Below, piece after piece: positions 23,396-64,000 of a stretch of 64,000 nucleotides of DNA. Within the stretch, counting starts at the first letter, position 1, and each line of letters opens with the position of its first letter. Made by a program: the position numbers and the translations under genes. Origin of the DNA: Rhizophagus irregularis (lineage: Eukaryota); the NCBI RefSeq assembly GCF_026210795.1, contig NC_089429.1, positions 5,456,001 to 5,520,000 of the forward strand. The letters are read 5' to 3'. The notes below the pieces were generated by a model that had not been told where the DNA came from, did not search any database, and worked only from the letters and a program-made list of their open reading frames with translations.

Positions 23396-25099
23396 TTAAA
23401 AATATTTTTCCCTAATTCTCACTTGTTTAGCAGGAAATACTTTAAAATTACCCTCAGCAATTTCATTCATTTTTCTACAAACTTCTAAATCATTCATTTT
23501 ACAAGTTTCTACATATTTATCATAAATATCCGCTCCAAAAATGTAATCAATTCCAACCCATCTCAAAGAATCTTTTTCTTTTGAAAAATCTGAAAATATC
23601 TTAATATTTTTTTCCTCAATAGCATCCATAATTATAGTTGATAATGGTGAACAGCATTTAGATAAATAACCTTGTAAACCTTTTACGCCTATATTCATTA
23701 ATTCTAAATATTGCAATTTTTCTAACCCAAGTTTCGAAAATTCATTATCTAATTCAGCTTTATCATCAATCATTCCAAGATCTAATTTCAAATGACTAAG
23801 ATTTTTTAAATGATTTATAAAAGTTATTACACTTGCTATGTCAACACGACCATAATCAGCATTTAAAGATAAATGTGTAATATTTTGGCAATGATTAACT
23901 AGCGTTTCAAGTCCTTCGTTGATATCATCAGATATAAATTTAACTGAAACTTGTTCCAACGCATCACCCGCTTTAATAAAGATAGCTTTCACAACCTCCT
24001 TTGGCAATTCACTAAGATGCAAAAATTTTAATCTAATAGAAGCATTAAGAATAGGTTGAATTGATTCAAGCGTTAAAGAACGACATTTTCTTAGAACTAA
24101 AGATTCCAACCTTGTACATTGATAAAGTGAAGTTAAAGAAATTCCTGAAAATATCATATCATCCAATACCAAATGTGTCAATTTATGAACTGGTAAAACA
24201 TTAATTAACAAACAAATTTCTCCATAAACCTTATAAAATCGGCAATAAGTTAATTCAGGTTGCGACGTAATTAATCCTGCCAATATTTCAGCAGTCGAAT
24301 AATTTGGAATCTTTATTCTATTTATATCCAAATGAACAAGTCCATTACATATATTTGGCAATAATTTTAAAAGGTCATATAAATTTCCTCGTTGTTCATG
24401 CTGACATAACGAGTTCGTATAAAATCGAAGTTTAAGTTTTCGTAAATTGACTAATCCAGGTTCATTATCCGCAAAAATATTGCTCTTTGGTATATCCTTA
24501 TTAACCTTATAAGGACTTAGAATAAGATATTTCAAATTAGATGCGCTTCTCATGAATATTTTACATAAAGAATCTACCATAGCATTTGTTGCTTGTGATG
24601 CTGGAGTTTCGGTTTGTAACGTTGTAACTTCACCATCAAGTTCTTTACATTTAACTTCTGAACTTTCCGTTTCTGTGCTTAAAGAATTTGAAGTTTCGCC
24701 AGATTGTTGTAATTTTAACTTATTAAACCATGTTACCGTTGCCGTCTCAATTGCTCCAACATCAAGAATATGTATGTATTGTGCATAATTAAATAAAGGA
24801 AATGGACGGTCCGATAATTTTGAAAAATCAATTCCTTCATTAATTAAATATGATTTTTCTTCTTCGTTAAAGAAAGGAATAAAAACCTCGATATTAATTA
24901 TATTCATTCTCGTCGGATTATATGGCATAGGTCTTCTCCAAATTATCGGAATAACTTTTCGACACCAAAATCTATTTACAAAAAGACATGAATATAATGA
25001 ACGTCTATCAAATTTTAAATACTTAAATATTTCATCAAAACATTCCGAAGGTAATTTTGAAATCGTTATAGGATCTTTAAATTTTTCCGTCGTCGACAT
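23396..25099 (-). CDS. F-box plus RNI-like leucine-rich-repeat protein, intronless
   Basis: N-terminal F-box LPSECFDEIFKYL...SLYSCLFVNRFWCRKVIPIIWRRP, followed by LxxLxL repeats; 567 aa. Confidence 0.88.
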   Translation of the reverse strand: MSTTEKFKDPITISKLPSECFDEIFKYLKFDRRSLYSCLFVNRFWCRKVIPIIWRRPMPYNPTRMNIINIEVFIPFFNEEEKSYLINEGIDFSKLSDRPFPLFNYAQYIHILDVGAIETATVTWFNKLKLQQSGETSNSLSTETESSEVKCKELDGEVTTLQTETPASQATNAMVDSLCKIFMRSASNLKYLILSPYKVNKDIPKSNIFADNEPGLVNLRKLKLRFYTNSLCQHEQRGNLYDLLKLLPNICNGLVHLDINRIKIPNYSTAEILAGLITSQPELTYCRFYKVYGEICLLINVLPVHKLTHLVLDDMIFSGISLTSLYQCTRLESLVLRKCRSLTLESIQPILNASIRLKFLHLSELPKEVVKAIFIKAGDALEQVSVKFISDDINEGLETLVNHCQNITHLSLNADYGRVDIASVITFINHLKNLSHLKLDLGMIDDKAELDNEFSKLGLEKLQYLELMNIGVKGLQGYLSKCCSPLSTIIMDAIEEKNIKIFSDFSKEKDSLRWVGIDYIFGADIYDKYVETCKMNDLEVCRKMNEIAEGNFKVFPAKQVRIREKYF

Positions 25100-26785
25100 T
25101 TTTTTTTTATTATTTTTTCTGTCAAAAAAAAAACCTAAAAATACCCTAGAAAAAAATATTTATACCCCAGTTAACGATTCACAAATTCTTAATTTGGTCC
25201 AGAAATCGAATGATCATCTGATTGCATTATTAACACGTTTAAAAATAAATAATTCCCCTTCACCTTGTATTACTCTATTTGAACGTCACTTCTTAAAAAT
25301 AAATGATTATTAATTATATTGATTAAACATAATGGATCATATCTGATACCATTGACGTGTTAATTATCGATTTTAATTTTTTAATTATATGTCTGAATCG
25401 GAAAAAGAAAATTGCCTTATATAGTAGTACCAAATTTAACAGAATAGCAAGCAAAATTATATTAAAGACGTTCCTTCTCTTAGTATAAAGAATACGAGTA
25501 ACTTTCTCAGCAAATATTATTCACCTGAGGACTTTGGTGAAGAAGATAGTAATGAAAATTCGATGTGATAACACGGAAGTCTATTGAATGTAATTATGGT
25601 TGTTATCATGTTATTAATGTAACAAAGATAATATTGTAGTGGGACTTGTTTCCATTTTAAGTCACTATATGAATAAATTAAATCCGAATAATATCTTAAA
25701 TGAGAGACGTTGGAAAAAGATGAGAACGAGGTTAATATAATGTTGAATGATACGCGTAAAGGTTCTAAAAATATAATAGGTCAAAAAATTACAGAACCCG
25801 ATCTTAGCAGGTAGTGAGAGGGAAAGTTTTATTATCTTCAAATAAAAATTGTTTTATTGGTAAATTAAATAGAACTGATGATTTACAAACGTACAGTATA
25901 TTAATATTCAAAACTATTCAAAACGATAATATAAAGAGTATGGGAATGAAAGTTGTAATGTAAAAATAATAATTATGGGTCCTGAAGAGAAAATAACAAT
26001 GCAAGCTGTTCAGAAATAACCATTGTTCAATGACATATAAAAACGTTGCGGATAAAACGATATAATTGCAAATGCTGGATCAAAAGGAAAAGTAGCAGAT
26101 CTTGGCCCTGGAGAACTTATATGAGTTAGACATGTATGAATACAAAATTTATGCCACATATTATAACAGATTATTTTTTAATTGTAACATAAACGCGTCG
26201 AATATCTTTTAATTGGCCAAAATATTAGGCAACGGTTTAATATTTGATTCATTATATATTACTGGCTAATAAAATGCAAGAAATCCAATTTTAATCATTT
26301 ATCCTCAAATTCAGCGATCCAAAGGTGAAAACAATTCGAAAAAAAAGGCAAGCAAAAAAAACCAAAAAGACCACAAACGAAAGAGATAATATGAAGTTGA
26401 AAAAAACGATGTCGTCAAAAGTCGCATTTTGTTGAAAATCATCCAATTATAAATAACGGTTTTTGCAAGAATAGATGTTGACTCAACAGTATTGGGTAGC
26501 CTTTAGTCCTTAAAAAGAACAAAAAAATAATAAAAAATATTTTTTTTCAGTTATATAGCCTTTTTTGTAATAGTAGAGTGATTTGTGTAAACTTAATTAT
26601 ATTTTATTGGTTATCGCGAAAAATTATCTAATAATCATTACAAAGACATCAAAATTTATAAATTGATTTTCTTTTTTGGTATGGCGTCATGTAATGAATA
26701 TTGAAATGATCTGATCATTACGTTTTATAAATATTTTGAATTCAAAAAAACTTTTTTTTTTCTCTTACTTTTATTTATTTGAAAA

Positions 26786-28118
26786 ATGAAGGCTATTGTA
26801 TTAAATAATTGGTTAAAAGATGTTGATGAGTTGGTGGTTGATAATAATGCACCTGAACCAAAGTTGGGAGATAATCAAGTTTTGGTTGAAATTAAGGCTG
26901 TTGCTTTGAATTTTTTCGATATTTTACAGGTAAATAATATATATATATATATTTGAATATTAAGAATGGTTAGTGAAATATTTTGCGACAATTAACCCTG
27001 GTTTTGGTAAAAATATTAGGTTCAAGGGAAATATCAAGAGAAACCACCGTTTCCTCATATTCCCGGAACTGAGGTAATTTATTATTTTCGATTATTTTTC
27101 GAATTTTTCTACCAATTAAACCTTTTTTTTTTCAGTTTTCTGGAATTGTTATCAAAGCAGGAGAAAAATGTAAAAAATCATTTAAACAAGGAGATAAAGT
27201 ATTTGGTAGTGCAAGTGGATGTTTTGCAGAACGTGTTTCGGCACAAATTAATAATTTACATTTAATACCTGATGGTATGAGTTTTGAAGAAGCTGCAGGG
27301 TTATCTATTACTTATCCTACTAGTTATGCTGCTTTAGTTATCAGAGCTAAATTACAAAAAGGTATATTATACGAAAGAAATATTTCTATTTTAAAGAAAT
27401 TAATAATAGTTATTATTTACAACGTTATAATAATTTTTATCTTTTGATTAAAAGGCGAATGGTGTCTTGTTCATGCTGCAGCTGGTGGTGTTGGAGCGGT
27501 AGCGGTACAAGTTGCTAAAGCTCTTGGAGCAAAAGTTATTGCTACAGGAGGTTCATCAGAAAAATTAGCTATTGCAAAAAAAGTGGGTGCAGATTATGCA
27601 GTTAACTATAAAGACAAAGATTGGCAAAAGCAAGTATTAAAAATTACGGGAGGAAAAGGTGTTGACGTTGTTTATGATCCTGTAGGATTAATTGTTCCTT
27701 CTATTAAATGTATAGGTAATTAATTATGTTCGTTAATTTACTCAAAATGATTTTGGCTAACGCGATTTCTTTCTAAAATAATTTATTAATAATTATAGCA
27801 TGGAATGGGAGACTCGTCGTTATTGGATTCGTAAGTGGCAATATTGAAAAAGTACCAACAAATCTTGTATTACTTAAAAATATATCAATTATTGGGTTAT
27901 TTTGGGGCTCATATGCAAAAAATGATCCAGAACGTAATGATGAAGTTTGGAATGATCTGTTTAATTTATTTGGTAGTGGAAAATTAAAACCTCTTGTTTA
28001 TGAAAAAGTTTTTCATGGATTGGATAACGTAAAAGTTGGCCTAAAAGCTATTGCGAATAGAAATACTTTTGGTAAAGTAGTTGTTATTCCTAATGGTGCT
28101 AGATCAAGTAAACTTTAA
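26786..28118 (+). CDS. NADPH:quinone oxidoreductase-like MDR (zeta-crystallin/QOR family) with peroxisomal PTS1
   Basis: Five exons, missed by the ORF track. Reads MKAIV...VLVEIKAVALNFFD, GKYQEKPPFPHIPGTEFSG, LVHAAAGGVG, GKGVDVVYDPVG, GRLVVIGF, GKVVV; ends ...RSSKL* (TAA 28116-28118). Confidence 0.92.
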
Positions 28119-38922: not shown

Positions 38923-39621
38923 ATGCCGAAAGCGAAACAAAAAAATTCATTGAAAACGAAACGCCAGAGAGAAAAAAAACAACCAAAAACAAAACGTCAG
39001 AGAGAAAAAAAAACCGTTTGGTGTCACTTCATTGTAGTGAAAAATCATGCTAACTCGCATCCCCATGTAAAATGTCAATACTGTTCCAAAGAATATGAAC
39101 GAGCTGTTCCTATACGAATGCAGTCTCATCTAGCATATAAATGTCCAACGGTACCGATTGATACAAAATCACAATTCAGCAATCAGAATTCTAATGATTA
39201 TATGAGCGAAAATGAGCAAAAATTTCTTGAGATTTTACTAGTTGAAGCATTTTCTACTGAAGCAAACCCTTTTTTTGTCGATAATCCACGCGTTATCGAA
39301 TTTTTTAAACGCCTTCGATCATCATTTAAGTTGCCAAGTGGAAGAGAAATGAAAATGCAAGTGGATAAATTGAATAATAGCAGTCGGATTGAATCAAGTC
39401 ATCATGAAGAACAAGAAACTAGTATCGAATCGAGTCTCCAAATTCATCAAAATGATTATTATAGTTATGACTACGCTTACAGTACTAGTAGTTATCACCA
39501 CGAAACATTAGATCCAAATTCTTTAGTTTCACCTGCTCATTTTCAACCAAATGAACAAAATGTGCAATTTAATTATAATTATATTGATCCTAATAGCTCT
39601 TTTTACAATTATGGGAAATGA
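38923..39621 (+). CDS. BED zinc-finger protein derived from a hAT transposase N-terminus
   Basis: VWCHF...HVKCQYC...MQSHLAYKC BED motif, then a hAT-like FVDNPRVIEFFKRLRSSFKLPS segment. No DDE domain; low-complexity tail. Confidence 0.8.
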   Translation: MPKAKQKNSLKTKRQREKKQPKTKRQREKKTVWCHFIVVKNHANSHPHVKCQYCSKEYERAVPIRMQSHLAYKCPTVPIDTKSQFSNQNSNDYMSENEQKFLEILLVEAFSTEANPFFVDNPRVIEFFKRLRSSFKLPSGREMKMQVDKLNNSSRIESSHHEEQETSIESSLQIHQNDYYSYDYAYSTSSYHHETLDPNSLVSPAHFQPNEQNVQFNYNYIDPNSSFYNYGK

Positions 39622-45500: not shown

Positions 45501-46795
45501 CTAAGGCTTGTTTCATTTATGAAAGACGTTCATAGATTCACTAAAATTAAAGCTAGTTTAATAAATAAGTAAAAAAAAAAATCAAACGCGGCACAGTAAT
45601 TTTCGTTACAAAAACAGGCATCTCGATTAATATTTAAACTAGATTGATTATTATTTAAAACGCCTATTTACCTTATATTTGTATGCTGTACATGTTGTAT
45701 TGTCCTCCATAACTTATAATATAAACACAAGATCATGCAATAATTATTACTGAACCCTAGCCTACGCCAAAAATGTTGGTTACCCTGACCAATTTATAAA
45801 AATTTGATTTGGAGCTGCCTCCTCATTGTTAAGATAAAGTTTGATTTCACGTGAAATAACGCGTTTGATGTTTTAGATCTCACGATTGAGCGACCTGTTG
45901 TTATACTCTTAAATTATGTTGACAGGCTGTGTAAATTATTGATTGCCAATCATTCCTAAAATGGATTAATGATTTTAGAATAAAATTCCAAACAAAATTT
46001 TAGCTAACCAATTTTTATTATAGTTCAACAATTAGATGTATGATAAATTGTCAGATCTAATAGTTTATATTGTTATAATGAATTTCTTTTTCAACTAGTT
46101 CCTAAGGTAAACTTGGCAGTTAATTGTTAAGCGAAACGAGTAAAAAAAGGAACGAGTGAGTTTGCGATGATGGCTAAAGAATGTGTGACCATAGATTCCT
46201 CAGATTAGATAAGGATTGTCAATGGATACTACTGTTTATAGAGTGACAATGTTTCTTTTATGAACTAAATAAATATTTTATTACATTACACATTTTTTTA
46301 ACGAGAGGAAACAAACAACTTGAGATGCAGTTAAGCCCATCTTGTCAAAATGATCAAATAACTTTAATAAGTATCATACTCTTATTTCCTAAATCACACA
46401 TAAAATGTGGATCTTTCGCTAACGGCTGGCATCTATTTTGTCATTAAATTATACATAATCGTTCTTTCATGATCGAGAAACTCCGTTATTACTATTAAAT
46501 TTGTTAAATCTTCATTTTCAATTTTTCATTTACGAACTGACATATGCAATATGCATATATTTCGTCACATCTTACGTAATCTTATCTGGTCCCGATATGT
46601 AGGCAAAAAATGCAAATCATATGAATTGTGCGACGTCACCACCGTTTAAGGGACAAATTAATTACATATATAATATGCAATATGCGTCGCAGTTGGTATC
46701 ACTATGAAGGCGCTCCTCATATAAAATTACGGTTTTCACATAGAAGTCTGCAGTTGCCTGCGTTTAGAAGAAAAAAAAAATCAAAAAAAAATGTT

Positions 46796-48326
46796 ATGGA
46801 GCAATCAACAAGTTTTAAGCATAAAATTGATTTTTTATTATCAAACACATCATTAAGTCCATTAAGTCAAACAACGGTTAAGTTAAAATACAAAAAAAAG
46901 AAATGTAATGAATGTAATAAAAGGAGAAAAATTACAGACGAAAATCATCAGATTTGCCACATTTGTCACAAAATGAAACCGTTATTTAAACCAAGCGGAA
47001 GCAAAATCATTGATGATTTTATCAGACATACACAAATTAATTATGTTAGAAAAGAAGGAAAATTGGAATTTATTCCCTATGACCAATTCAAAAATTTAGA
47101 ATTTATTGCCGAAGGGGGATTTAGCAAAATTTATAAGGGTATTTGGAAGGATGGCCCAATTTCTAAATGGGATAATAAAAGTAATACTCGTCAATGTGAT
47201 TATACAGTTGCTCTCAAAAAACTCAATGATTCTAAAGATATCACTCATAAGGGATTGAACGAGGTACGTACAACATTCTGTTTTAAATTGATTAATAATA
47301 TTAATTAATAAAGTTTCTTATTTTAGCTTAAGATATTTTATGATTTCTCATTAAAATGGAAAGCAAGTCGAATGTATAGTTCTTACAAATATATTAGTAA
47401 TTATTTTGGAATTACGAGGGATCCTGTTACCGAAGATATTATGATAGTTATGCCATATTATAATTCAGGTGATTTGATATATTATATAACTAAAGTATTT
47501 TATGAGATTAAATGGGAAGAAAAGTTAAAAAACTTAATAAAGATAATAATTGGACTTATGAATATACATAGTGTAAATATTGTTCACAGAGATCTTCATA
47601 GTGGAAATATTTTTTTTGATAACACAAAAAGTGCAATCATAGGTGATTTGGGTATAAGTAAATCTGCAACCGAATCTACAGATGACAACAATAATGAAAA
47701 TTATGGAATTATCCCTTATATGGCTCCGGAAATTTTTCATGGACAAAAATATACTAAAGCTTCAGACATATATAGTTTCGGAATGGTTATGTGGGAGTTA
47801 ATGACAGGTAGAAGACCTTTTTGGGATCGAAATCATGACACAGAACTTATTATTGAAATTTGTGATGGTTTACGACCACCAATTGTTACAAATGCACCTG
47901 GTGATTATATTGAATTAATGCAAAAATGCTGGCATTCTGATCCAGAGAAACGACCGGATGCTTATAATATATATCAAAGTATTCATAAAATATTTAATAA
48001 TGAATGGAATAATCATTTTCGTAAGCAAGAGCCAACTAAAATTATTGAATCATCGGATATTGGACCTGTATCAATAAATGCTCCAGGTGCCATTTACAAA
48101 AGCAGACCTTTAAGTGCCATAATTAATTCTGCAATGTCTTTAAAAATTTCAAGAAAAATTTCAAGAAGTCGGTCGATAAAAATTTCAAAAAGTCGATTGA
48201 TTGGTATGGAATTATCATTCTAAGTTATATTAATAATTAAGTTCTAAATTTATATAACATCTAACATAACTTTTTTAATTTTTAGACACAGATTATATTA
48301 GTAGGGAATTGGAATTTGACATTTAA
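46796..48326 (+). CDS. TKL-like protein kinase with an N-terminal CxxC...CxxC motif
   Basis: Exons 46796-47263, 47327-48203 and 48286-48326. Motifs AEGGFSKIY, VALK, HRDLHSGNI, GDLG, YMAPE, DIYSFGMVMWE; ends YISRELEFDI*. Confidence 0.92.
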
Positions 48327-52153: not shown

Positions 52154-52486
52154 TTACTGATAACTGATAAAAGGAAACTGGTCAGCTCCATAATATCCAT
52201 TTATATTTTGCTGATAATTATAGCCAAATGAATGACTGTTATTTAATATTTGCAATACCTTTTCTACTATTTTCTCTATATTATCACTATGAATATTATT
52301 TGTATTATTTTGCGATTTTGCATCATCTGGTGCTACTTCGCACTTATCGAGATGAGTTTGCATTCTTTGAGGAACAGCTCGTCGAAAATATTTTGGACAG
52401 TATTTACATCGAACATGAGGATGTGGGTTTTCATGATTACCAATTACGTCAAAGTGTTCCCAAGCTGGTTTCTTTACTTTTGGCAT
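52154..52486 (-). CDS. Small BED zinc-finger protein, paralog of 38923-39621
   Basis: AWEHF...HPHVRCKYC...RAVPQRMQTHLDKC matches HPHVKCQYC...RAVPIRMQSHL..KC. Confidence 0.78.
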   Translation of the reverse strand: MPKVKKPAWEHFDVIGNHENPHPHVRCKYCPKYFRRAVPQRMQTHLDKCEVAPDDAKSQNNTNNIHSDNIEKIVEKVLQILNNSHSFGYNYQQNINGYYGADQFPFISYQ

Positions 52487-54860
52487 TTGGTAATAGTGCT
52501 GTACTTAAAAATAAAGGTATTTTGTAATATAGATAAGAGTTAAAAATTTTGTAAGTTCTTTTTTTTTGTTTTCGTTAATTGACAGAATTTGTCAATTTAT
52601 GGATAAAAAATAATCAAAAAAGAAGTATTTATATAAACTTTACTTTTGATCAAAAAGGCGTCTGTTTGTATGATTTATGAATAAGATTGAACGCGATAAT
52701 AAAATATTTTGGTTAATTTAACCGTTAATATTTACCGTTAAACGCCAGTTAACGTCAATTAACCTTGATGACAAAACTTTAAAATCCAGATTTTTCATAC
52801 GAATCAATTACCGCATCTATAATTAGTTAAATAATAAAGTTAGAGACTTATTGTAGAAAATTAATTGTTCATTTTTTTCTTAAATCCCATTGGTGATTGT
52901 ATCATGGCTTCCTTTAAACGTTTAGTATCAAATTATTTCTTGTGATATTTATTTATTTTACAGAATATAGATTAGCCAAAAATGGTTCTTTCCATCATTA
53001 TAATTATTGATATAAATAAAGCGCACGAAACAAATGCACGAAATAATTTGGCGTTTTTTTTTTAAAAAAAATTAACTGTTAAATTAACTGTAGATCGGCA
53101 AATTTACCGTCAAAATCGTTAAATTAACCGTTAAATTGCGTTAAATTAAGTTAAATTGACCGCAATTAAATCAAATGTTAACCGTCAATTAACTGTAAAT
53201 TAACCATTGTGCGATTTAAAAAAAAAGATAAGGCCACTCAAACTTGTTTGTTTGTTTAACGTACTATTTTTTTAAAAAAAAATCTAAATTTTGATAATCA
53301 TACAAAATATGCCCCCTTAATTCCCGAATTTTTCCAAAATTTCCAAACTTTATTATTTATTTCGCTTAGTTTGGAAAAGTTTAAGAATACTGGAATTTAA
53401 AAATAAATAAAGAAAAAAAGATTCTTAGAACTTAAATTCTGTTTCTAACGCCATGAAAATTTACGTCAGAATCAATCATATATTGAAAGTGTAAATAGGC
53501 TGAACAATGTTTAGTTATTTTAATACTGTTTTTGTAGATTTCTTCTCCATTATTGACAAAAGTATAAATAATAATGATTAATCAAATGAATTAAATGAAA
53601 AAACTATACTTTAGAATCTCTGTAAATCAATATTCAAAATTAATATTAAGCGCAGCCGTGAAAATCAATGATACTCCACAGTTCCCCGTGAAATAACTAA
53701 CTCTCAAAGGATAAACCTGGGAGCACAAATTTTGAGCGGGCGGACGGACCGCGAAACTTTTTCATAAAAATAAATAGTTCCTTCGTTACACGCCGGATAC
53801 ACGAAAATGTCTAGATGATACGAATGAAGCTTTCTTGTCAGCCAAATTATAGTGTACACTAGTGGACTATTCTAATGAATAAACGTGAAATTGGAATGAT
53901 TGGTAATTACACATTCCTAATTTAGTGAATATCGATCTGTATGGTCCCAGCTAAACCGATTTAATATTCTTTCAACTTTCAAGTATCAACTAGCAACGTT
54001 TCTCACGCCAATTATAATACATCGAAAAACACGGCTCCGAGATGACTTCTGACCCCACGCATGGCATTAGTGGCAATTTGATATACACTTCAACAAACTT
54101 TTCTCACTATATAATATACTATATGGCAACAAAATAAGTTTCAAATTTAGTTCTTATAACATCACACTATTCTAATTTCAAGTTCATTTACCATTTACAA
54201 GAACATAGAAAAAGAAGTTGATAAGAGAATTTGGTGAATCTTTTCAGGTAATATTATTATCTGAGTTTTTTCACAGTAGAACTGCTTAAATTTATTTAAT
54301 AAAATGTGTTTTATGTAAAATCATGAGAATAATTTTCTCTATAGACAAGTAGGAGACTCCATCACATTCTCGTTCCGATCCTTCGAATCTTATAACAGTC
54401 TGAGACGCAGTAGCGACACTTAATCTTCCAGAATGACAAAACTTGGTTATATTAGCCAATCAATTTGGGAACATCGATTTAATGAAACAATGGCATGGAA
54501 TATCCCCTCTTGTCACATGTGCCCTGGCAGAATCTTCTGAAATGCAGAAAACCTGAAAATAAAAATACTTTGCCCATATATTTTATGCACGAAAAATCTG
54601 AAAACTGCTTTATGTATCAGGTGCCAGAAGTTAACCGACTTCATGAATACAAGGCGTTACAATGATTCCTATATGGCATGGCTGGCGAAAAAATTGTAAG
54701 TCAAACTGACGCAAAGGCGCTAATCATATTGCAGCTTATATTCTTCATGTTACATTGAAATTTATCATTTAGTTATTTGATAATAATTGTAATTTATTTT
54801 AAACGATAATTTCTTTTGATGGGTCTAGATCAAAAGACTGACAAACAAAAACGCGAATGC

Positions 54861-54922
54861 AGCGGTTTGTCCTAGTACAATTTAATATATTAATATATTA
54901 AATTGTACTAGGACAAACCGCT
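54861..54922. repeat. Perfect 62-bp palindrome with no loop
   Basis: agcggtttgtcctagtacaatttaatatatt|aatatattaaattgtactaggacaaaccgct. Confidence 0.95.
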
Positions 54923-54937
54923 TGCATCAGACTAAAA

Positions 54938-55072
54938 TGTCCTAGGTCATTATAGTCTATTGATTAATATGTACTAGGACATTATAATCTATCAATTAAT
55001 ATGTACTAAGACATAATAGTCTATCAATTAATACGTCCTAAGACATAATAAATCATTGACTAATTTGTCCTA
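54938..55072. repeat. About four tandem 32-bp repeats sharing the palindrome motif tgtactaggaca
   Basis: Units of tgt(a/c)cta(g/a)gacat(t/a)ata(g/a)tctatcaattaata. Confidence 0.85.
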
Positions 55073-55181
55073 AAGTTGGGGTCCGCTTTTCCTGTTTGTG
55101 ACTTATTGGTCAGTAAATATGGGTGTGATGTGCGCCTATTTGGTTGTCTTTAGGATGCCGAAAAAAAGGTGACGGGTAGCA

Positions 55182-55461
55182 CAGTAAATTCGTGATTAAT
55201 TTCGGCCAACACTATTTCTTAATTCTGGCCGATCTTTAGAGCATGTGATTTGGAGGATCCAGCTTGGCGCCATGGTAGCGACCTGGTAGTATCCTGGAGC
55301 TGTCATGGAACTAGTGAGGAACTGGCAAGGAACTAGAGTGATTCTATTAGTTCGCCAGTTTCAGGCCAGCTTGGATGCCAGCTTGAATGCCGAGTTATTT
55401 ATGTCAAAAGATCTGGCCGAAATTATGGAATAGTGCTGGCCAAAATTAACAAAATTTACTG
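55182..55461. repeat. Imperfect inverted-repeat (foldback) module
   Basis: aatttcggccaacactatttcttaattctggccgatcttt versus aaagatctggccgaaattatggaatagtgctggccaaaatt, plus outer cagtaaatt/aatttactg. Confidence 0.7.
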
Positions 55462-55649
55462 CGCCTTACTGCGTCATGATCACGTGTTCAGTTCCTCGCC
55501 AGTTCCAGGCACTTTCCCGTCACTTTCAAGTAACTTTTGAGTAACTTTCGAGGGCCTGGTTTGGTGGTCAGTTGGTTAGAGGATCAGAGGTGTAATTTGC
55601 ATTATATTAATCCGCCCATATATTTTCCTTCTTGATTGCCAATCTCTTA

Positions 55650-55835
55650 ATTGCCGGATGAGGCACGAAGTGCCGAATTTGCAATCCATCATCTATTTGC
55701 TAAAGATGTGTTGCAATCCATTCACTCACTTTTTGATTGCCGGTGAGGCACGAAGTGCCGATGTTGTGCCATTCTTGCAATCCTGCCTTTCGTGACCCTT
55801 TTGATTGCTGAGGATGAGGCACAAAGTGCCGAATT
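55650..55835. repeat. Three dispersed mini-hairpin repeats GGCAC-(G/A)AA-GTGCC
   Basis: At 55662-55674, 55747-55759 and 55818-55830, each preceded by ttgc(c)...tga. Confidence 0.85.
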
Positions 55836-56375
55836 AGTTCAGGCTATATTGCTTTCATACCTTTTTTCGTGTATTCTCCTGAGACTTTCTGCCTTCCCAA
55901 TCTCTTTCCTGCCTATCGGCGGTAGTACACCAAAGCATAATTTCTTATTTTCTTTCCTATATATTATTCTACTTTGGTGTACTACCAAATTTATACCCTA
56001 GTTTTCGCCCGAGCCTTCCTAGAACTCTTTCTCGTATAGTTACTACTCTGGGATACTTTGGGGTACTACTACATCGATTATTTTTAGGCATTATTATATT
56101 GATTACTTTTGGGTACTACCACTGACCCAGTGTTTTGCCAGCAAGCATATTCGCTCAAAATTATATAAAATTTTTATTTTGAACTTTCCTAGTTTCTCTG
56201 TTATTTTATACTGCTTTCTTGCATATACACCATACTTCTTGCGCAAAAAAAAAATGGCTTAAAAAATATATGAATTATATGGATAAGTACTCTTAGCTGA
56301 AATTGCCACACCTCCGCTAGAATACTTATAATATTATTTATATATTTTTTTCTCGTGCAATAATACCGGCTAACT

Positions 56376-56699
56376 TCAATTTCTATCTTCGAACTTCTGA
56401 CCTCCGATCATATAACCCGGCCTCGGATATGCCCAGAGGTGTAAATCGCTAGTCTGAATGTATCGGTCACTTTTTTCTTTCGACTTGGCGCTCCATGAAT
56501 TCCATATTTTTTTCCCGACCACAATCCATATAATTTCAAGAAGTAGTAAGGTGAGTATAGAATATATTATTATCGGCGACATCAAGGAGCTCGCAAGTAT
56601 AGGAGCAGTTGCTTTTGGTAAAGGCACCGCTTCTGCGCTACCTACAGAAATTAATTGAGACGATGGATTAAGAGCAGAAGGTTGTGATGAATCATTCAT
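56376..56699 (-). CDS. Small predicted single-pass membrane protein of the element
   Basis: Hydrophobic stretch IIIYSILTLLLLEIIWIVVG followed by KK. Its start overlaps the upstream stop (ATGA at 56699-56696). Confidence 0.55.
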   Translation of the reverse strand: MNDSSQPSALNPSSQLISVGSAEAVPLPKATAPILASSLMSPIIIYSILTLLLLEIIWIVVGKKIWNSWSAKSKEKSDRYIQTSDLHLWAYPRPGYMIGGQKFEDRN

Positions 56700-57440
56700 A
56701 GGCGGGGCGGAGTATTTACTTTATTATCTTTCTTTGACACTAACTGGTTGCGTAGCAATCTATTTTCCTCCATCAATTTTAATTGTTCTGAAGACCGAAT
56801 ATCCAGCTCCCGTTTGTATATGCTATCTGACGACTCTATCCCTTTTCCCATACATTCTATTGTATATTCTTTTGAACTAAGATCCTCATTTGCTCGTTTC
56901 AATTCAAGCCTGAGAGAATCAATCTCTTTAGGATCGGATGAACTTATTTGGACTGGCTCCTCTATCACCCCTCCCATTACATCCAAATCATGATATGTAC
57001 GCTCTAGATCTATGTCCTCTAACTTACCTTCCAATTCACGTATTTTAGTTTCAAGAGATAGAATTGTAACCTTGTCAGCGGACGAAGCTTTCTGGGCCAA
57101 AGTTGCCTCTCTCTTTAGTGTTTTAATATTTGATTTAAGCGATTTGATTTCGGCAGTATATTTGGCTTCAAGCTCACGTCGACTCTCAGAATGAGACTTC
57201 CGTTCAGAAATAAGTTGGGATCTAACTTTAGCGCTGGACGCATTTAACTGGCTAATCTTATTTCCAATATCCTCCTCTCGCTCCAAATACTCTGAATTTT
57301 TAGCCAACAACTTTTCACAAAGATCATTAATTTCGGCTTTAGAACTAAGAGTGGTATACAATTTTTTTTTGAGCTCTTGCTCATACGCACTACCAAGCCG
57401 ATATCCTCTATTTTTATATCTTTCAATGTATGCACATTGG
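56696..57440 (-). CDS. Coiled-coil protein of the element (5' end uncertain or frameshifted)
   Basis: 221-aa heptad-rich ORF. The frame stays open upstream (...YEQELKKKLYTTLSSK) with no in-frame ATG there. Confidence 0.6.
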
Positions 57441-57711
57441 ACATAATCTTGGCATGGTTATATAGCAGAAAAAAAAAATGCGCGTAACTAAATTTCATCT
57501 ATAGGGCATTTTTTTTATTTTTTCTTGTCAAAATAAAATATCAAATATTCTTTATTGAGAAACATCACTTTTCATCATTTTTTATCATTTTTCATTGTTT
57601 TTTATCGTTCAAAAACCATAAATATTGTTTTTTATCGTTCAAAAAACATAAATATTGTTTTTTATATTTTTTTATCATTCTAAAATATTGCTAGAAATTA
57701 CTGGAGGAATT

Positions 57712-58257
57712 ATGCCTAGCCGATTTTTAAAAACTCATTATCGACGAGGTGCTAGTGTTTTAACGCCTGAGCAGATCGAAAAAATTAGATGCCTTAAAAA
57801 TAAGGTTCCTGCGTATATGATAGTAAGGAACTACCATATTAATAAAGATCGCGTCTCCGATATATGGGATGATTGTGAACGTCTACAACAGAGTGGGGAA
57901 TATGTATTAGCAGATATGTTACCGGAGCCATCAAACCATGACGATATAGTTCACTTTAAGAACGATCCTTTAGGTGTTTCAAATATTTCCTCAGAGAATC
58001 ACAATGAATATGATATCGTTTCCGATAGCAAGAAAAAAAAGACTGGAGGAAAGAAACCCAAGTCCAAGTCTGTTAGAATCTCTGAACCATCTATTACCCA
58101 GAATCAGCCAACGCCTACAAGCCCGGAGAGTTCAGAAGGTTTAAATATTAGCAGAGAGGATCTGAATGCATTTTATGAAAAAGAAGCTAAGAGAGACGAA
58201 AAAAATAAAGCAGAGGTGAATAGACGTCTAGCCGTGTATAAGATATTCCCCATTTAG
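57712..58257 (+). CDS. Hypothetical protein with an N-terminal HTH-like motif (possible regulator)
   Basis: LTPEQIEKIR...AYMIVRNYHINKDRVSDIW resembles a helix-turn-helix. Basic NLS-like KKKKTGGKKPK. Confidence 0.55.
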   Translation: MPSRFLKTHYRRGASVLTPEQIEKIRCLKNKVPAYMIVRNYHINKDRVSDIWDDCERLQQSGEYVLADMLPEPSNHDDIVHFKNDPLGVSNISSENHNEYDIVSDSKKKKTGGKKPKSKSVRISEPSITQNQPTPTSPESSEGLNISREDLNAFYEKEAKRDEKNKAEVNRRLAVYKIFPI

Positions 58258-58352
58258 TTTATCATAGCGTACTAATAATTTCTCACACAATTCATTAAGA
58301 TCCTCTTTAGACTTAAGAGCGCTAAATAACATTTTTTCAAGCTCCTCATAAC

Positions 58353-59367
58353 TCACTTTTTTTTTAATGCGCCATCCTCACTTAAGTCCTGCGAAATGCA
58401 GTCTGGAATCATGGAATTATACTTCTCCGCTAATTAATTACGTCGTATTTCGGCGAATGGACCAATTCACTATTTATTATAAAATTACTATGAATTAATT
58501 ACGTCTGTCAAAATACATTACGTCTGTCAAAATAAATTTAATTAGTATTTTGTCATTTTGACGAAAAGTATACATGGAATCGTCACATTCAGGAGTAATG
58601 TTCGCGCAATTCACCTCGAGCTTGTTCTTGACCTTATGCATATTAATTGGAATAAAAAATTCCTTACCATTACACTCTAGTCTCAATTCCCGTTTTGAAG
58701 CAAGTAAATCATAGTTATATTTATCAAACAATGTGTTAGGTAAAATGAGCATCGGCTTAGGATACTTAACTACAGCAAAATCAGCATATATAGTACATCC
58801 GGGAGCAAAATTTACTGGGACATTTCGGACAGTACCAAGAGATTCTATAGGAATGGTAGCGATGCCTCTAAGGTCATGTTTTTCTTTTGTATCGATTTTC
58901 AGCTTTGATCGTTCAGATATATCCTTGGTCATAATTGGGAAATTAGCACCAGGATCAACTGTGGCCACCGGAATCACTAGACGCTTAATTTTGCATTTGG
59001 TAGTAATGACATCCGTAGCAGTATCCTTTTTCTAAATAAAATATATTTCCATAGGATCATTGATAAATTCATAATCCTCAGAATCAACTGGTATTCTGGA
59101 AGCAGAATTCTGCGATTGAAAAAAAGCTATGGTGGCACCAAACTTTTCATTAAGCACCTTTTCAATAATTTTCTCAATAATATTTTCCAAGCGGGATTGG
59201 TCATCCTGTGATGGCGACTTTGAACTTTGCTTTTTCTTTTTAGAAATAGGAGCTGAGACCAAAGGAGCTGTCTCTATATCTTTTACCTCTTGAGATTTGG
59301 CCGTAATGCGACCCTTTGATTTCTTCTTTTGTGGTAAAGGGGAAGGATTAATCGATTCTTTCTTCAC
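58353..59367 (-). pseudogene. Retropepsin-like (gag-associated) aspartic protease ORF in the -1 frame relative to Gag
   Basis: VATVDPGANFPIM...LRGI...SLGTVRNVPV...ADFAVV...MLIL. In-frame TAG at 59032-59034. Removing the MITE and one TSD copy restores DSMIPDCISQDLSEDGALKKK*. Confidence 0.75.
58418..58572. mobile_element. 155-bp hAT-type MITE inserted in the protease ORF
   Basis: Exact 8-bp TSD catggaat at 58410-58417 and 58573-58580; short TIRs tatacttctc / gaaaagtata. Confidence 0.85.
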
Positions 59368-61556
59368 TTTTTTTTTGTCTTAGTAATATTAATATTAATA
59401 TCAGCTTCGGCTTCAGATTCAGATTCAGATGAAGAACTTAAACCAGAATCAGAAGAGTCATCAGACAACATATCAGAATTAGTATCCGAACTCGAACCTG
59501 AATCTAAAGTGGCAAGATTTACTTTACCCTTTTTGGACTTACTCTTCTTTTTTCTGGGACACTTACGAGAATTGTGACCAGTTTTACCACATTTAGAGCA
59601 TTTATGTTGGGCTAACTTTTTGACCACATTAACCATTTGAGAGTATTTTTTGGAAAGCTTGGCATAATTGGCATCATTGGTGCCCAATCTCTTTATTAAT
59701 TCGTCATTAATATAATTATCTAAAGATGTAAGATCTCTTGGTGCATTAGGTGGCATTCCCAAACGCACTGCACGTATATACATCTTTTCTAAGGCCTCAT
59801 CATTCTGGAGGCGTACTTGAGCTGGTTGAGCTAACTGCTGGGCTCGTAGGGAGGCTATTTCAGATTTTAACTTATCAATCTCAGCTGAAGAATTACTCTG
59901 ATAATTTTGACCTCCATTTAAATTGGGAGCACGCTCCAACCACATATCTTTAAGTTGTGTAAAGAATGCATCAATACCAGCAGGAGCAACAGCTCGCATC
60001 CATGTATAAAGATCACCCGACAAGTGATTCTTAAGAAATCCTACGGTTTGGGCATCACCATCCACTACACCTAATAATAAAGGTCGGATTCTTTTTTCAT
60101 AAGTATCTGGTGAATCTGTGGGTAGAAATCTTTCTTGAGTTAACCTCTGCAGTGCTGACTGCCGACTACCTACTGTTTCACGTTGATATTCTGATCTCAT
60201 CTAAGCGCGTAAAGTAGCTGGAGTATTAATATTAGCATTTCCGTTATATGGGTCTTGGGCAGGAACTGGTAAATATTTTCCTCCCATCTGAGCTTTATAA
60301 ATATTACACTTGACAGCATCATCAAAATCTCCAGCATTTGCATTTTCAAGAGCAGTCATATGCCCTTGTGCAAATGATATTGATTGAATAAATCTATCTA
60401 AATAATCATCAGGAGGTTCTTGGCCTGTATAGGGCTTAGTTTTTCCAAGAACCGGTGCAATCATAGTTAATACTGGTAAACGTCTACCATCAGCCATATT
60501 TCCTAATGGATTATTCTGAAGCGCCAAAATTTGTCCCTGCAAATTTAAAATATTCTGGCCTTTTTGCCTAATCACTAGCTGAAAAACAAACTTTTCACGT
60601 AGCAATTCACCAATGCGGGTTTGTTTTCGTGCTATAATAATTAACATTCTATTTACCTGGTTTTGAGCATTAGTTTGCAATTGTCAGATATTTTGCTGAA
60701 GACGGTTAGTATCTCGCTGATACAATAGCTGTTTAGCAAATTTTTCTCGCAATAATCCTTGAACACGCCTATTTTTATCCCGATATGAAAACATCCAGCA
60801 ATGGGATTCTTGTCTCTCATTATTATAGGCCAGCATAGCCAAGTCCCGTTCTCCTTGAGCATTATCTCTTTCCCTCGCAGTTCTATCAGTCTGAGCTCGA
60901 GATTCATCTAATAACCGCTGAGATCGCAGATTTTCATTTCTCATATCCCTCAACTGTTGTATAAGAACCCGCTCCCGCTCATTCGTTTCATTTAATAAAT
61001 TCTGATACTGATCACGCTCAGCTGTAATATTTTGCAAAGTAACCCGAATAGTATTTAACGAGCCTCTGATACCATCTATAACATTGGCAGGATTCTGCAT
61101 AGGCGTGCCAGCCCCTCTAATGTGATTTTCAATTCGATCTAATCCTTTATTAATATTTACGATATAATTAGCCGTTGCCATACCTAAAGCATTTATTGAG
61201 ATTTTTTTATTTATGAGAATCCGGATTCTTGCTTTAAGACTCCCAACCTTATTTTCGAGCTCTATGATTCGGCCATCTTGAACAAATCCAGCCTCATCTT
61301 TGAATTTTTTATCTTGTTGTAAGATCCTAAGCTGTTTTCGCAAATCAGAAATATCTGATTTAAGTTTCTCTATCTCTTTTTCGTGGACTATGATAGTATT
61401 ATCCTGTAATGAGATAGTCCGATAACATTGCTCAAGCTCCTTCACGAGAGAGCGAACTTTTTTCTCATTGCTCTTATTAGCAAAAATCTCATCTTGAAGT
61501 TCACTACGAAGCTCCTGGTTCGTATCTAAAAGCTGTGAATATGCTGGATCAGACAT
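59364..61556 (-). pseudogene. Single ORF of about 730 codons: long coiled coil, Gag/capsid-like domain and CCHC zinc knuckle, with two premature stops
   Basis: The three track ORFs share one frame, separated only by TGA 60684-60686 and TAG 60201-60203. Motifs PYTGQEPPDDYLDRF, MHR-like QERFLPTDSPDTYEKRI and CSKCGKTGHNSRKC. Confidence 0.78.
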
Positions 61557-61608
61557 GGTATTATTCAGCCCTGATTTATAGTACTATCATAATAATCCTA
61601 CCTTGAGA

Positions 61609-63275
61609 ATGAGTCAACCGCAAATTGTGATAGATCCCGATGAAGAGCTCCGTATAGTCTGTAGACTTCTATTTTATAATATACCTGGTTTTCATCCCAA
61701 TGCAAAAAAACTACATAAAGCGTGTCAGGAAGAAGGATATTCTTTTCAATTACAGGATATCACAAAATGGGTAAAATACCAATATAGTTACCAAATTTAT
61801 CAACAGCCATTGCCATGCAAAGCCGAGGCAAGCTTTTCGAAGATTAAGATTCCAAACAAAGTTCATCAGTGTGATATTCTGCTCCATACTCACAATGATC
61901 AGGATGGTAGAAGGGTTTTCGTTTGTAGTTTGCTAGTCATAGATGTGGCAATGCGTTATAAGGAAGGACGTTCTCTAACATCAAGAAATAGCTTAGAAAT
62001 CTGGATTGCAATCAAAGAAATATATGAGGATCCTTCTAATCCTCTCACATGGCCGACATTATTAATGACCGATGGTGATGCTTCGTTCTGAGGCGCATTT
62101 TCGCGAGGGATGCAACAGTACAATGTCACTATACGTGTTGTTGACCTTTATAGTTTTGAGAGCTTGGCTTTGATTAAAGCGTTCAAGAAAAATTTAGCGA
62201 AATTAATATATAATGTCCAATATGCCATAGAAGGGCGATTAGCTAAAGGGGAGCGATCAAGATTATGGAATAAAATCCTTAAGAAGTACATTGATTTTAT
62301 GAATAATAGTAAGACTCGCCTTATCGGAATGTCACCAGCTCGTGCTATGACTTTGGAAGAAGTCGAATCAAAACCTTCTAGTAAAGCTAAGCGGGCAATT
62401 GGGAGACATGAAGAGATAAAGTTAAAAAAGGGTATAGCGGTTAGATATCTATTGAAATCAGGCGAACTGGAAGGTATCACAGGCACCGAGCAACTGATCT
62501 GTACTGGTCCTTGCGTGTCTATAAGATCAAAAGAGTTGTTATTGGAAGGAATCCACCACAACCAGTCTTATACTATCTTGAGAATGAACCTATCGAATCT
62601 ACTGCCCATTTGATGGGACGAAACCCCAAAAGACCTTTCAAATTCGAGGAGCTCCAAGTAATCGAGGAACCCGATAAAATCGAATATCCGCCTGATGAAT
62701 TTATGCGGAAATACCATGATTCTAGATTTATTCACTTCACTCGAATTGCAGATAATAAGCTAACACAAGCTGAAGGTTATGCAAAGAGACGTGGCAGACT
62801 ATGCCTTGGAAAGACCGGGCAAATAAATGGGCATGATATATATCTTTGGTCTTATAAAAATGGTGCGCATCAATGGGAGTATCCATTAAAGTATATCATG
62901 AAAAAATTCGAATGGTGCCCTCTTTGCCACCACACTACTGAAAGAACTGTACGATATATTTTTGAGGATCTACTAGGCAAGAAATTTCCATCATGTAAGC
63001 CGAATTTTTTGCATGGAATGCAACTTGATGGATATAACGAAGAATTGCGACTAGGATTCGAATTTCATGGCAAACAACACTATAGCCTTAATTCAATGTT
63101 TCATAGGAGAGGCCAGATAGATTTGGATGAACAGAGGTCGCGTGATCAGAAGAAGCGGAATATATGTAAAAAAGAAGGTATATGTCTTATCGAAGTGCCA
63201 TATACATGTGACCTTTTTCCCTACATTAGGTATACGCTAATCGAAAAGGGATATTTGGATGATGCAAGTGGGTAA
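61609..63275 (+). pseudogene. rve/DDE integrase (Polinton/Maverick type) fused to a C-terminal zinc-ribbon plus PD-(D/E)XK-like endonuclease
   Basis: VHQCDIL and LMTDGDASF, then an in-frame TGA at 62089-62091, then MNNSKTRLIGMSPA. A frameshift near 62477 restores [22 protein letters not shown]...PVLYYL...FEEL. The frame then continues into WCPLC...[22 protein letters not shown]. Confidence 0.82.
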
Positions 63276-63361
63276 CCCAATCTATTGGGCAGGGCATTTA
63301 TTGCCGGAACTTGAGAAATTGTTACATTATTTTTCGATATAATAATTAGTTAGATCAAATC

Positions 63362-64000
63362 ATGAAATACGTAATATTCGCAGTGGACAAAGTCAAGCCC
63401 TCGAAAAAATATCAGGGTGATCCTCATGCACCGGCATGGCCTTTTCGAATTATAGTTGCAGGGGCTAGCAATTCGGGCAAAACAAATATGATTCTAAACC
63501 TGCTGGTGATGAACAAATTTTACTATATGTTTAGGAAAAAAAAGAGTTCTAAAATAGGTGAGCGCAATGTTAAATGTGACGATGTGATATTATGTGGCCA
63601 CCACCTTGATGAGCCTAAATACGGTATCGTTCAAAATTTTATAAATATCTCGCGCAAGATAAATCCAAGCCATACTATGAAGATAACACATTTTCTACAC
63701 TCACTCCTGATGAAATTCCAGATCCAAAAAAGTTCAATGCTAAAAGAAGTACACTAATGATATTTGAGGATGTCTGTTCGGACCCTCCAGCTATACAGAA
63801 AAAAATTATTCCATATTTTAGTAAAGGTCGCCATGAGAATATTTCTTCTATTTATGTCTCACAAAAATTTCACAGGATTCCTACGGATATTCGTGAAAAT
63901 GCAACGCATATTGTACTCTTCAGTGGTGGAGGTTCAACCCGAAAATTTGCTGACATTATAAGTCCTTATACAGATGCTGATCCGCACAAAGATTCAAAGG
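63362..64000 (+). pseudogene. A32-like (FtsK-HerA) viral genome-packaging ATPase, frameshifted near 63640, 3' truncated by the window
   Basis: Walker A RIIVAGASNSGKT. The shifted frame gives Walker B LMIFED, then SKGRHENISSIYVSQKFHRIPTDIRENATHIVLF. Confidence 0.88.

What the first reader, a model, noticed from the sequence alone, without database searches (positions are those of the whole stretch)
56376..64000. Hybrid virus-like element: Polinton-type integrase and packaging ATPase paired with a retroviral-like Gag-protease module, no RT
Seen in sequence: an intronless, gene-dense block. The integrase ATG (61609, +) and the Gag-like ATG (61556, -) are divergent and only 52 bp apart, with an A32 ATPase downstream. 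No RT/RNase H or LTR follows the protease. Established: Polintons/Mavericks pair an rve integrase and A32 ATPase with jelly-roll capsids and an adenovirus-like cysteine protease, whereas Gag-CCHC plus retropepsin belongs to LTR retroelements. Inference: this is one element family mixing both virion-building toolkits, possibly a DNA element that uses a Gag-like shell or matrix.
Basis: partly seen in the sequence, partly recalled or inferred. Interest (0 to 1): 0.92.

Follow-up and report, generated by a model that had tools for sequence, protein, structure and literature searches.

The report
Fungal Maverick with retrotransposon Gag capsid
In arbuscular mycorrhizal fungi, a mobile element carries a Maverick-type integrase and DNA-packaging ATPase head-to-head with a gene predicted to fold like a retrotransposon capsid plus a protease, with no reverse transcriptase in view, so it is likely a DNA element that swapped its usual virus shell for a retrovirus-like one; this particular copy is broken.

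Summary
Confirmed and extended. The window holds a dead copy (in-frame stops, frameshifts, a nested MITE) of a conserved Glomeromycotina element. Its layout is gag-pro on the minus strand, 52 bp from a divergent rve integrase-nuclease, followed by an A32 ATPase. It is one family, not a chance nesting: 48 of 48 related loci with upstream DNA have the divergent gag, and 23 of 24 have the ATPase. Adjacent accessions show the pairing in two Rhizophagus species and Diversispora. The Gag core folds as a retro-type capsid (top 36 structural hits). Gag joins the protease through a conserved slippery -1 frame junction. All genes show purifying selection. No RT, LTR, pPolB, jelly-roll capsid or cysteine protease was found, but the right end was not reached. 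The window's clade lacks the canonical third integrase acid (Lys) and has a D-P-G protease motif. Prior art: capsid-less 11-kb Glomus Mavericks with an ATPase are listed, their capsid is reported missing, and one figure legend mentions Gag/retropepsin in a PolB element. Best reading: a Maverick-derived element whose jelly-roll module was replaced by Gag-protease. Particles, packaged nucleic acid and replicase are untested.

The parts
59364..61556 (-). ORF1, Gag-like: ~350-aa coiled-coil N-terminus, CA, linker, CCHC knuckle, Lys-rich then Ser/acidic tail; two in-frame stops in this copy (60686-84, 60203-01)
   Evidence: intact relative L034, 90-92% identical
59916..60515 (-). CA (capsid) domain, NTD + CTD; boundaries approximate, by alignment to L034
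   Evidence: AF2 model of L034 homologue, pLDDT 89.4; VIA top 36 rows are retroviral/retrotransposon CA, best Z 10.6, rmsd 2.6, 82 aligned
59556..59603 (-). CCHC zinc knuckle
   Evidence: Pfam zf-CCHC E 0.011, below cut-off; motif seen in sequence
59364..59379 (-). Slippery A-rich heptamer just before the ORF1 stop; ORF2 opens in the -1 frame with no start of its own (predicted programmed -1 frameshift)
   Evidence: same arrangement in window, L034, L027 and L020-L023, i.e. three lineages
58495..59379 (-). ORF2: linker + retropepsin-like aspartic protease (catalytic Asp at 58956-58954, motif D-P-G); one in-frame stop at 59034-32; tail cut by a MITE
   Evidence: weak DDI1-type hits in PDB, E 0.15-0.33
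61557..61608 (.). 52-bp divergent intergenic spacer (likely shared promoter region)
   Evidence: length 29-66 bp in most loci; sequences
61609..63275 (+). Stand-alone rve integrase (Asp89 and Asp155 kept, Lys at the canonical third acid, 62176-78) fused to a C-terminal Zn/PD-(D/E)XK-like nuclease domain (~62760-63272); stop at 62089-91 and frameshift near 62480
   Evidence: intact 552-557-aa relatives P0183, P0193 and L020; the nuclease label rests on motif recall plus a weak DUF2726 hit
63362..64000 (+). A32-like packaging ATPase (Walker A, FED, GRH/arginine-finger motif); frameshift near 63660; runs past the window end
57712..58257 (+). orfB, small protein with an HTH-like N-terminus (label by inspection)
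   Evidence: positional counterpart in L021/L022 at 25% identity; no Pfam hit
56696..57444 (-). Coiled-coil ORF (frameshift near 57400)
   Evidence: 61% identical to the N-terminus of gene model P0026, which joins it to gag-pro; a coiled-coil ORF sits at the same position in L021
56376..56699 (-). orfA, 107 aa with one hydrophobic stretch; status doubtful
   Evidence: no homologue among session proteins or loci
58418..58572 (.). Nested 155-bp MITE with short inverted ends and an 8-bp target duplication, inserted in the protease tail; not part of the element
   Evidence: (joints skipping it)
54890..56375 (.). Left boundary zone (unresolved): GC rise, short subterminal-like repeats, and another small inverted-repeat element at ~55180-55465

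Best explanation
This is a broken copy of a Glomeromycotina element family that carries a stand-alone Polinton/Maverick-type integrase and A32 ATPase head-to-head with a gag-pro gene pair, and that likely arose from a Maverick whose jelly-roll capsid and cysteine protease were replaced by the Gag-protease module of an LTR retroelement. Shown: the linkage, the gene order, purifying selection, and the lack of RT and LTRs around gag-pro. Predicted: the CA fold and a -1 frameshift that would make much Gag and little Gag-protease, as in retroviruses. Inferred working model: the element moves as double-stranded DNA; Gag assembles a shell that the protease matures; the basic tail and/or the A32 motor load the DNA; the integrase inserts it. 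Copying of the DNA would come from a protein-primed PolB supplied in trans by PolB-bearing Glomus Polintons, or lying in the unseen right arm. The window's clade, with Lys at the third integrase site and a D-P-G protease, would be partly dependent on sister elements that keep D-D-E and D-S-G.
For: Linkage: divergent gag in 48 of 48 loci with >=150 nt upstream of the integrase start, A32 in 23 of 24 loci with >=900 nt downstream (80 loci examined; several are near-copies). Neighbouring accessions: CAB5350276/279, CAB4425235/236, PKB97300/302, GES99015-19, RHZ76311/313. CA fold; a second CA type on the same coiled coil passes Pfam Retrotrans_gag. Frameshift conserved in three lineages. Median dN/dS: 0.16 K-type integrase, 0.15 E-type, 0.26 Gag N-terminus, 0.26 CA, 0.17 nuclease; the single unsaturated pairs gave 0.19 for PR and 0.11 for A32. 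The best 150 profile hits of the integrase are all <=434 aa, i.e. not pol polyproteins; one distant hit carries a chromodomain. The K and E clades together form one branch (SH-aLRT 98) among these. Integrase and ATPase both match genes of a viral contig that also encodes an adenovirus-type protease. 0 of 53 gag homologues carry RT, RNase H or rve. Literature: G. intraradices P_Gi1.2 (11,019 bp) has an ATPase but no MCP, penton or protease (PMC4028283 Table S1); its MCP is still reported missing (PMC7805220); Glomus/Rhizophagus A32s group with Maverick-Polintons (bioRxiv 2026.06.19.733378).
Against: No pPolB was found in the window or in 214 kb of loci, including 10 kb downstream of the integrase in L020, so the replicase is unshown. 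No TIR/TSD pair could be tested. An A32 motor working with a Gag shell has no precedent that I found; it may have another job. The window clade's integrase (48 loci with FES...K) and protease (D-P-G in 7 of 22 homologues, D-S-C in 8) have non-canonical catalytic sites, so activity is doubtful. Gag types and integrase types are shuffled against each other, so no single co-phylogeny exists. The integrase tree lacks named Polinton and LTR-retroelement references, and the 'careful' search did not finish. I could not compare my sequence with P_Gi1.2 itself.
Confidence: 0.62

Rival explanations
1. RNA-route satellite: the element is transcribed whole, packaged in its own Gag particle, reverse-transcribed by an RT borrowed from host Ty3/Gypsy elements, and inserted by its own integrase; the ATPase has an accessory role.
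For: Gag, CCHC knuckle, -1 frameshift and protease are the RNA-packaging toolkit. No DNA polymerase is seen. Types recombine freely at domain borders.
Against: No LTR and no room for one upstream of gag. Genes are divergent and convergent rather than on one strand. The knuckle is missing in 8 of 16 gene models that span CA to protease (two motif mis-matches, P0003 and P0012, dropped from 18; some models are spliced predictions) and in natural loci L010/L011.
Confidence: 0.15
2. No virion: a capsid-less Maverick-type DNA transposon that keeps gag-pro and the ATPase for an intracellular role (a scaffold or condensate that shields the excised DNA from silencing and carries it between nuclei of the coenocytic hypha, or a restriction factor against retroelements).
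For: Enzymes of the window clade look catalytically altered yet conserved. The 350-aa coiled coil before CA is unlike a typical matrix. Concerted loss of morphogenesis genes is known in Polintons (PMC4028283 passage).
Against: The ATPase keeps its Walker A/B and GRH motifs across sequences 40-95% identical. The protease and frameshift are kept, which points to regulated particle maturation.
Confidence: 0.18
3. Chance nesting: a non-autonomous gag-pro LTR element (TR-GAG-like) inserted next to a Maverick integrase in this one copy.
For: The window is full of nested small elements. TR-GAG elements with gag only are described in plants (PMC4350172, search listing).
Against: 48 of 48 linkage at a near-fixed spacing across integrases 40-93% identical and in several genera. 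No LTRs.
Confidence: 0.03

Closest known systems
Capsid-less Mavericks/Polintons of Glomus (Rhizophagus) intraradices: P_Gi1.2 (11,019 bp) and P_Gi1.1 / Polinton-1_GI (11,954 bp), as tabulated in PMC4028283 Table S1
   Same: Same fungal group. P_Gi1.2 has an ATPase but no MCP, penton or cysteine protease, and its size fits my estimate of about 10-11 kb for the conserved core.
   Different: No Gag, retropepsin, frameshift or integrase-nuclease fusion is described in the passages and table rows I read; these elements are treated as having lost or hidden their capsid.
[quoted passage not shown] 2021, PMC8502044, Fig. 5 legend
   Same: [quoted passage not shown] Rhizophagus adintovirus-like PolB is named in the Fig. 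3 legend.
   Different: The text of section 3.4 neither names the host nor discusses the element. That element has PolB; none was seen here. I could not see the figure, and the supplement is cut at 4 M characters with no hit.
Canonical Polintons/Mavericks and polinton-like viruses (e.g. viral contig L084)
   Same: Stand-alone rve integrase and A32 ATPase are homologous (hhalign 98.5% and 99.2%); intronless, bidirectional gene layout.
   Different: No jelly-roll MCP/penton, adenain protease or pPolB detected; gag-pro sits in their place.
LTR retrotransposons (Ty3/Gypsy Metaviridae, Ty1/Copia) and retroviruses; PEG10/Arc capsids
   Same: CA fold, CCHC knuckle, aspartic protease, -1 frame junction.
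   Different: No RT/RNase H, no LTR/PBS; the integrase is a separate, oppositely oriented gene of another lineage; an A32 ATPase is present.
Caulimoviridae (weak BFVD hits); bidnaviruses and cruciviruses (recalled, from no call)
   Same: Caulimoviruses hold dsDNA in a Gag-derived coat; bidna- and cruciviruses are capsid-swap chimeras between virus lineages.
   Different: Caulimoviruses make their DNA by RT and have no integrase or A32; the recalled chimeras use single-jelly-roll capsids, not Gag.

Membership tests
Polinton/Maverick | Stand-alone retroviral-like (rve) integrase | tested here: met
   Sister clade passes Pfam rve; top 150 profile hits all <=434 aa; the window clade has Lys at the third catalytic site
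Polinton/Maverick | A32-like packaging ATPase | tested here: met
   Pfam Pox_A32 above cut-off; motifs conserved
Polinton/Maverick | Protein-primed PolB | tested here: inconclusive
   No motif or tblastn hit in the window or 80 loci, but no locus shows both element ends
Polinton/Maverick | Double jelly-roll MCP and penton | tested here: inconclusive
   0 hits with the putative MCP/penton ORFs of L082/L084, while controls A32 and integrase gave 16 and 60 hits; no ORF of MCP size to the right in L020; the one 465-aa open frame in L055 was not scanned; divergent MCPs could be missed
Polinton/Maverick | Adenovirus-type cysteine protease | tested here: inconclusive
   0 hits with two PLV proteases; ends not reached
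Polinton/Maverick | Terminal inverted repeats and 5-6-bp target duplication | not testable with these tools
   The right end lies outside the window, no genome is held, and the left boundary is unresolved
LTR retrotransposon (Metaviridae/Pseudoviridae) | Gag with CA fold | tested here: met
   Pfam Retrotrans_gag in L003, P0040 and P0049
LTR retrotransposon (Metaviridae/Pseudoviridae) | Aspartic protease downstream of gag, often by frameshift | tested here: met
   motif D-S-G in 7, D-S-C in 8 and D-P-G in 7 of 22 homologues
LTR retrotransposon (Metaviridae/Pseudoviridae) | RT and RNase H in pol after the protease | tested here: not met
   ORF2 ends after the protease in the window and in L020-L023 and L027; 0 of 53 homologues carry RT; no motif hit
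LTR retrotransposon (Metaviridae/Pseudoviridae) | Integrase in the same polyprotein and orientation | tested here: not met
   The integrase is divergent and separate in 48 of 48 loci
LTR retrotransposon / TR-GAG | LTRs flanking gag(-pol) | tested here: not met
   Only 29-66 bp to the integrase in most loci; no long direct repeat in the window or in 9 long loci

The most novel reading that the evidence does not exclude
A lineage of integrating double-stranded DNA viruses of mycorrhizal fungi that package their DNA, with an A32 motor, into a protease-matured retroviral-type Gag shell without any reverse transcription: a cross-realm chimera of Varidnaviria and Ortervirales, and the missing capsid of the Glomus Polintons.
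Probability: 0.35. Interest if true: 0.94.

Novelty: new variant of a known kind. Interest (0 to 1): 0.8.

Why it matters
Glomus/Rhizophagus Polintons have been cited as elements with no detectable capsid, and Mavericks are reported as expanded in Glomerales and recently active. A Gag-protease module fixed beside the integrase and ATPase gives a concrete, testable answer: the capsid was replaced, not lost. If particles with DNA exist, it would be a Gag shell filled with DNA that was not made by reverse transcription, a candidate dsDNA virus-like agent of fungi, and a possible vehicle for moving DNA between nuclei or strains of a key plant symbiont. The conserved integrase clade with Lys at the third catalytic site is a second puzzle: an alternative active site or a structural role.

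Tried and rejected
IMG/VR scans with the window integrase, a Gag piece and the integrase alignment found no true member; L001 was a spurious phage hit. Scans with the ATPase and distant-integrase alignments gave only remote PLV-like contigs at 26-30% identity. The GTDB scan and plasmid search found nothing. No RNA holder was listed, so expression is unknown. Structure prediction of orfD was useless (pLDDT 47) and was not searched. The Atlas gave only hypothetical Mucoromycota clusters and a sub-threshold Nucleocytoviricota lead for orfD, and generic coiled coils for the coiled-coil ORF. Foldseek alone gave no match at E<=0.001, although the listed PDB rows were all HIV CA. No stable RNA structure was found behind the slippery site (-3 to -10 kcal/mol), so the frameshift stimulator is not identified. 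L010 was dropped from the frameshift count because its ORF ends earlier at a different break. The 62-bp palindrome at 54861-54922 was considered as an element end and left open: contigs stop there, as any perfect hairpin makes them stop. Contig depth rises from about 55140, but the tool warns that this is no copy number and part of it is other small repeats. The second protease and the tyrosine-recombinase-like ORF in L020 occur in 1 of 80 loci and are not counted as core. No complex was predicted. Earlier findings of the scan: nothing relevant. Kapitonov & Jurka 2006 is not held; Pritham 2007 was not read.
Full report
Observation. The window is AT-rich fungal DNA with intron-containing host genes; the named homologues of the block come from Glomeromycotina. 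From about 55 kb the GC content rises from about 0.29 to 0.33-0.42. On the minus strand an ORF starts at 61556 and runs, through two in-frame stops, to 59364. A second frame continues to 58495 and holds an aspartic-protease domain. On the plus strand an integrase starts at 61609, 52 bp from the first ATG, and an A32 ATPase starts at 63362. This copy is dead: four in-frame stops, three further frameshifts, and a 155-bp MITE with an 8-bp target duplication in the protease tail.

Is it one element? A scan of metagenome contigs with an integrase alignment returned 80 loci, the best 80 of 90. Of the 48 that contain the integrase start and at least 150 nt upstream, all 48 have a divergent Gag N-terminus, mostly 29-66 bp away. 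Of the 24 with at least 900 nt downstream, 23 have the ATPase. These loci are not independent (L020-L023, L053-L055 and L024/L027 are near-copies), but they span integrases 40-93% identical and four or five Gag N-terminal types. Annotated assemblies agree: gag and integrase, or gag and ATPase, have neighbouring accessions on the same contig in R. irregularis (three pairs), R. clarus and Diversispora epigaea. Gigaspora, Cetraspora, Entrophospora and Paraglomus hold homologues whose linkage I did not test. The longer loci give the order coiled-coil ORF(-), orfB(+), protease-gag(-) | integrase-nuclease(+), ATPase(+), orfC(-), orfD(-), then variable genes such as RING fingers. orfC was found in 12 loci and orfD in 7; orfD is flanked by inverted repeats in L020 and L055 and may be a separate module. 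Gag types and integrase types are mixed, two CA types are swapped behind the same coiled coil, and the nuclease is a separate inverted gene in one lineage: this is a recombining family.

Is the Gag real? A 200-aa region from the intact relative L034 folds with pLDDT 89.4. Against 48,161 solved chains, the top 36 rows are all retroviral, retrotransposon or domesticated capsid domains: PEG10 CTD Z 10.6 (rmsd 2.6, 82 aligned), Copia 9.2 (150 aligned), Ty1 9.2, dArc 8.9, MLV 8.2, HIV and RSV 7.2; unrelated rows start at Z 4.4. Z values of this size can be common for helical proteins, but the uniform ranking is not. Foldseek gave the same family at non-significant E-values. The alternative CA type passes Pfam Retrotrans_gag and aligns with the window's type (alignment A2 holds at least one protein of the second type, P0017, so this is not a clean test). 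The junction to the protease is conserved. In the window, L034, L027 and L020-L023 the Gag frame ends a few codons after an in-frame A-AAA-AAN heptamer, and the protease frame is -1 with a stop just upstream. This is the layout of a programmed -1 frameshift; no stimulatory structure was found and the rate is untested. Nothing follows the protease: 0 of 53 Gag homologues of 488-1066 aa carry RT, RNase H or integrase, motif scans find no RT, and no LTR-like repeat exists. The CCHC knuckle is absent from 8 of 16 models that span CA to protease (two false motif matches dropped) and from L010/L011.

Are the integrase and ATPase Polinton-type? A profile search of 1.84 billion proteins gave best hits that are all short (<=434 aa), not pol polyproteins. 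Six of seven scanned share only the rve domain, and one adds a chromodomain. Most have no name; that they resemble animal Maverick integrases is recalled, not shown. In a quick tree of 52 rows the fungal sequences form one branch (98) inside these proteins, split into an E clade (99) and a K clade (100); the tree has no named Polinton or retrotransposon references. Both integrase and ATPase match a viral contig, L084, that also encodes an adenovirus-type protease and a putative MCP. The ATPase keeps Walker A, FED and GRH motifs over 18 sequences. The MCP, penton, protease and large replicase ORFs of L082/L084/L086 gave no hit in the window or the 80 loci, while their ATPase and integrase gave 16 and 60 hits.

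A surprise against a simple picture. The window's clade keeps the first two catalytic aspartates but has Lys at the third acid: FES..K in 48 loci and FKS..K in 1, against E in 16, one E-clade locus with K, and 14 unread, of 80. Its protease motif is D-P-G, while relatives have D-S-G or D-S-C. Yet the K clade is as constrained as the E clade (median dN/dS 0.16 over 21 pairs versus 0.15 over 10; pairwise estimates, some frames partly broken). Either the invariant Glu six residues upstream substitutes, or the protein is kept for another job and catalysis comes from sister elements.

Mechanism. Most likely a Maverick-derived DNA element took up gag-pro from an LTR retroelement and lost its jelly-roll capsid and cysteine protease, a like-for-like swap of shell plus maturation protease, while keeping the ATPase and integrase. 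Gag and a minor Gag-Pro would build and mature a shell; DNA would be loaded through the basic tail and/or the ATPase; the integrase would insert it; a PolB from related elements or from the unseen right arm would copy it. The linkage, selection and absence of RT/LTR are shown; fold and frameshift are predicted; particles, packaged nucleic acid and replicase are inferred. Rivals are an RNA-route satellite that borrows RT (0.15), a non-virion role for the module (0.18) and chance nesting (0.03).

What is known. PMC4028283 (passages and Table S1 rows) lists two G. intraradices elements of 11-12 kb without MCP, penton or protease, one with an ATPase. PMC7805220 (passages) states that no MCP has been found for them. 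bioRxiv 10.64898/2026.06.19.733378 (passages) places Glomus/Rhizophagus A32s with Maverick-Polintons and has no 'gag' occurrence. PMC11952901 and PMC8647823 (passages) report Maverick expansion in Glomerales with no gene content in the passages read. PMC5294986, PMC6431247, PMC11296320, PMC3671162 and 10.1101/2025.06.16.659975 (passages) add nothing on Gag. Ten library searches found no paper describing the element; the combination polinton + gag + retropepsin + capsid returned only the Starrett paper and its preprint. Subscription papers, including the 2006-2007 originals, were not searchable.

Verdict. The feature is real, conserved and one family. It works like a Polinton in integration and like a retroelement in shell building, and it is not a member of the LTR retrotransposons; Polinton membership is open until the ends and the replicase are seen. 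Novelty: new variant of a known kind, possibly glimpsed once in a figure; categorically new if DNA-filled Gag particles are shown. Interest 0.8.

Noticed in passing
window 54861-54922 and 54930-55060: Perfect 62-bp palindrome followed by three to four 32-bp tandem units that share its core word; sits at the edge of the repeat-rich zone.
   Followed up: partly
window 55180-55465: Small element with imperfect inverted ends (probable MITE) inside the left boundary zone.
   Followed up: partly
window 57306-57385 and 58274-58350: An 80-bp stretch at 71% identity: a short paralogue of the coiled-coil ORF follows the protease.
   Followed up: no
window 53054-53071: Many contigs end here with unlike flanks in all four runs: the end of another high-copy repeat.
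   Followed up: no
window 38923-39618 (+) and 52157-52504 (-): Two related BED-zinc-finger-like ORFs in inverted orientation, 13 kb apart (129-nt arms, 71%); the label is by inspection.
   Followed up: no
window 7738-27444 and 46625-48220: Host genes by inspection: kinesin-3-like, kinase fragments, a large Ski2-like helicase, an F-box/LRR protein, a quinone-reductase-like gene, a tyrosine-kinase-like gene.
   Followed up: no
L020 12697-14485: A second aspartic-protease ORF, a convergent protease-like ORF and a tyrosine-recombinase-like ORF lie 7-9 kb right of the ATPase; seen in this locus only.
   Followed up: partly
L024 1306-1803, L027, L047, L053-L056: In one lineage the nuclease domain is a separate gene in the opposite orientation instead of being fused to the integrase, as a mobile endonuclease would be.
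   Followed up: partly
L024 3065-6381: A transposase-like (hAT-type by inspection) insertion interrupts the right arm.
   Followed up: no
window 59379-62886, run X1: One small run holds four contigs identical to the element interior at depth 210-300 but has no cover of the flank 53737-54670; run type is uncertain and a hole proves nothing.
   Followed up: no
L082 and L084 (IMG/VR): Polinton-like virus contigs with putative MCP, cysteine protease and A32; L084 adds an rve integrase and a 1367-aa ORF with a DTDS motif and an endonuclease VII hit.
   Followed up: partly
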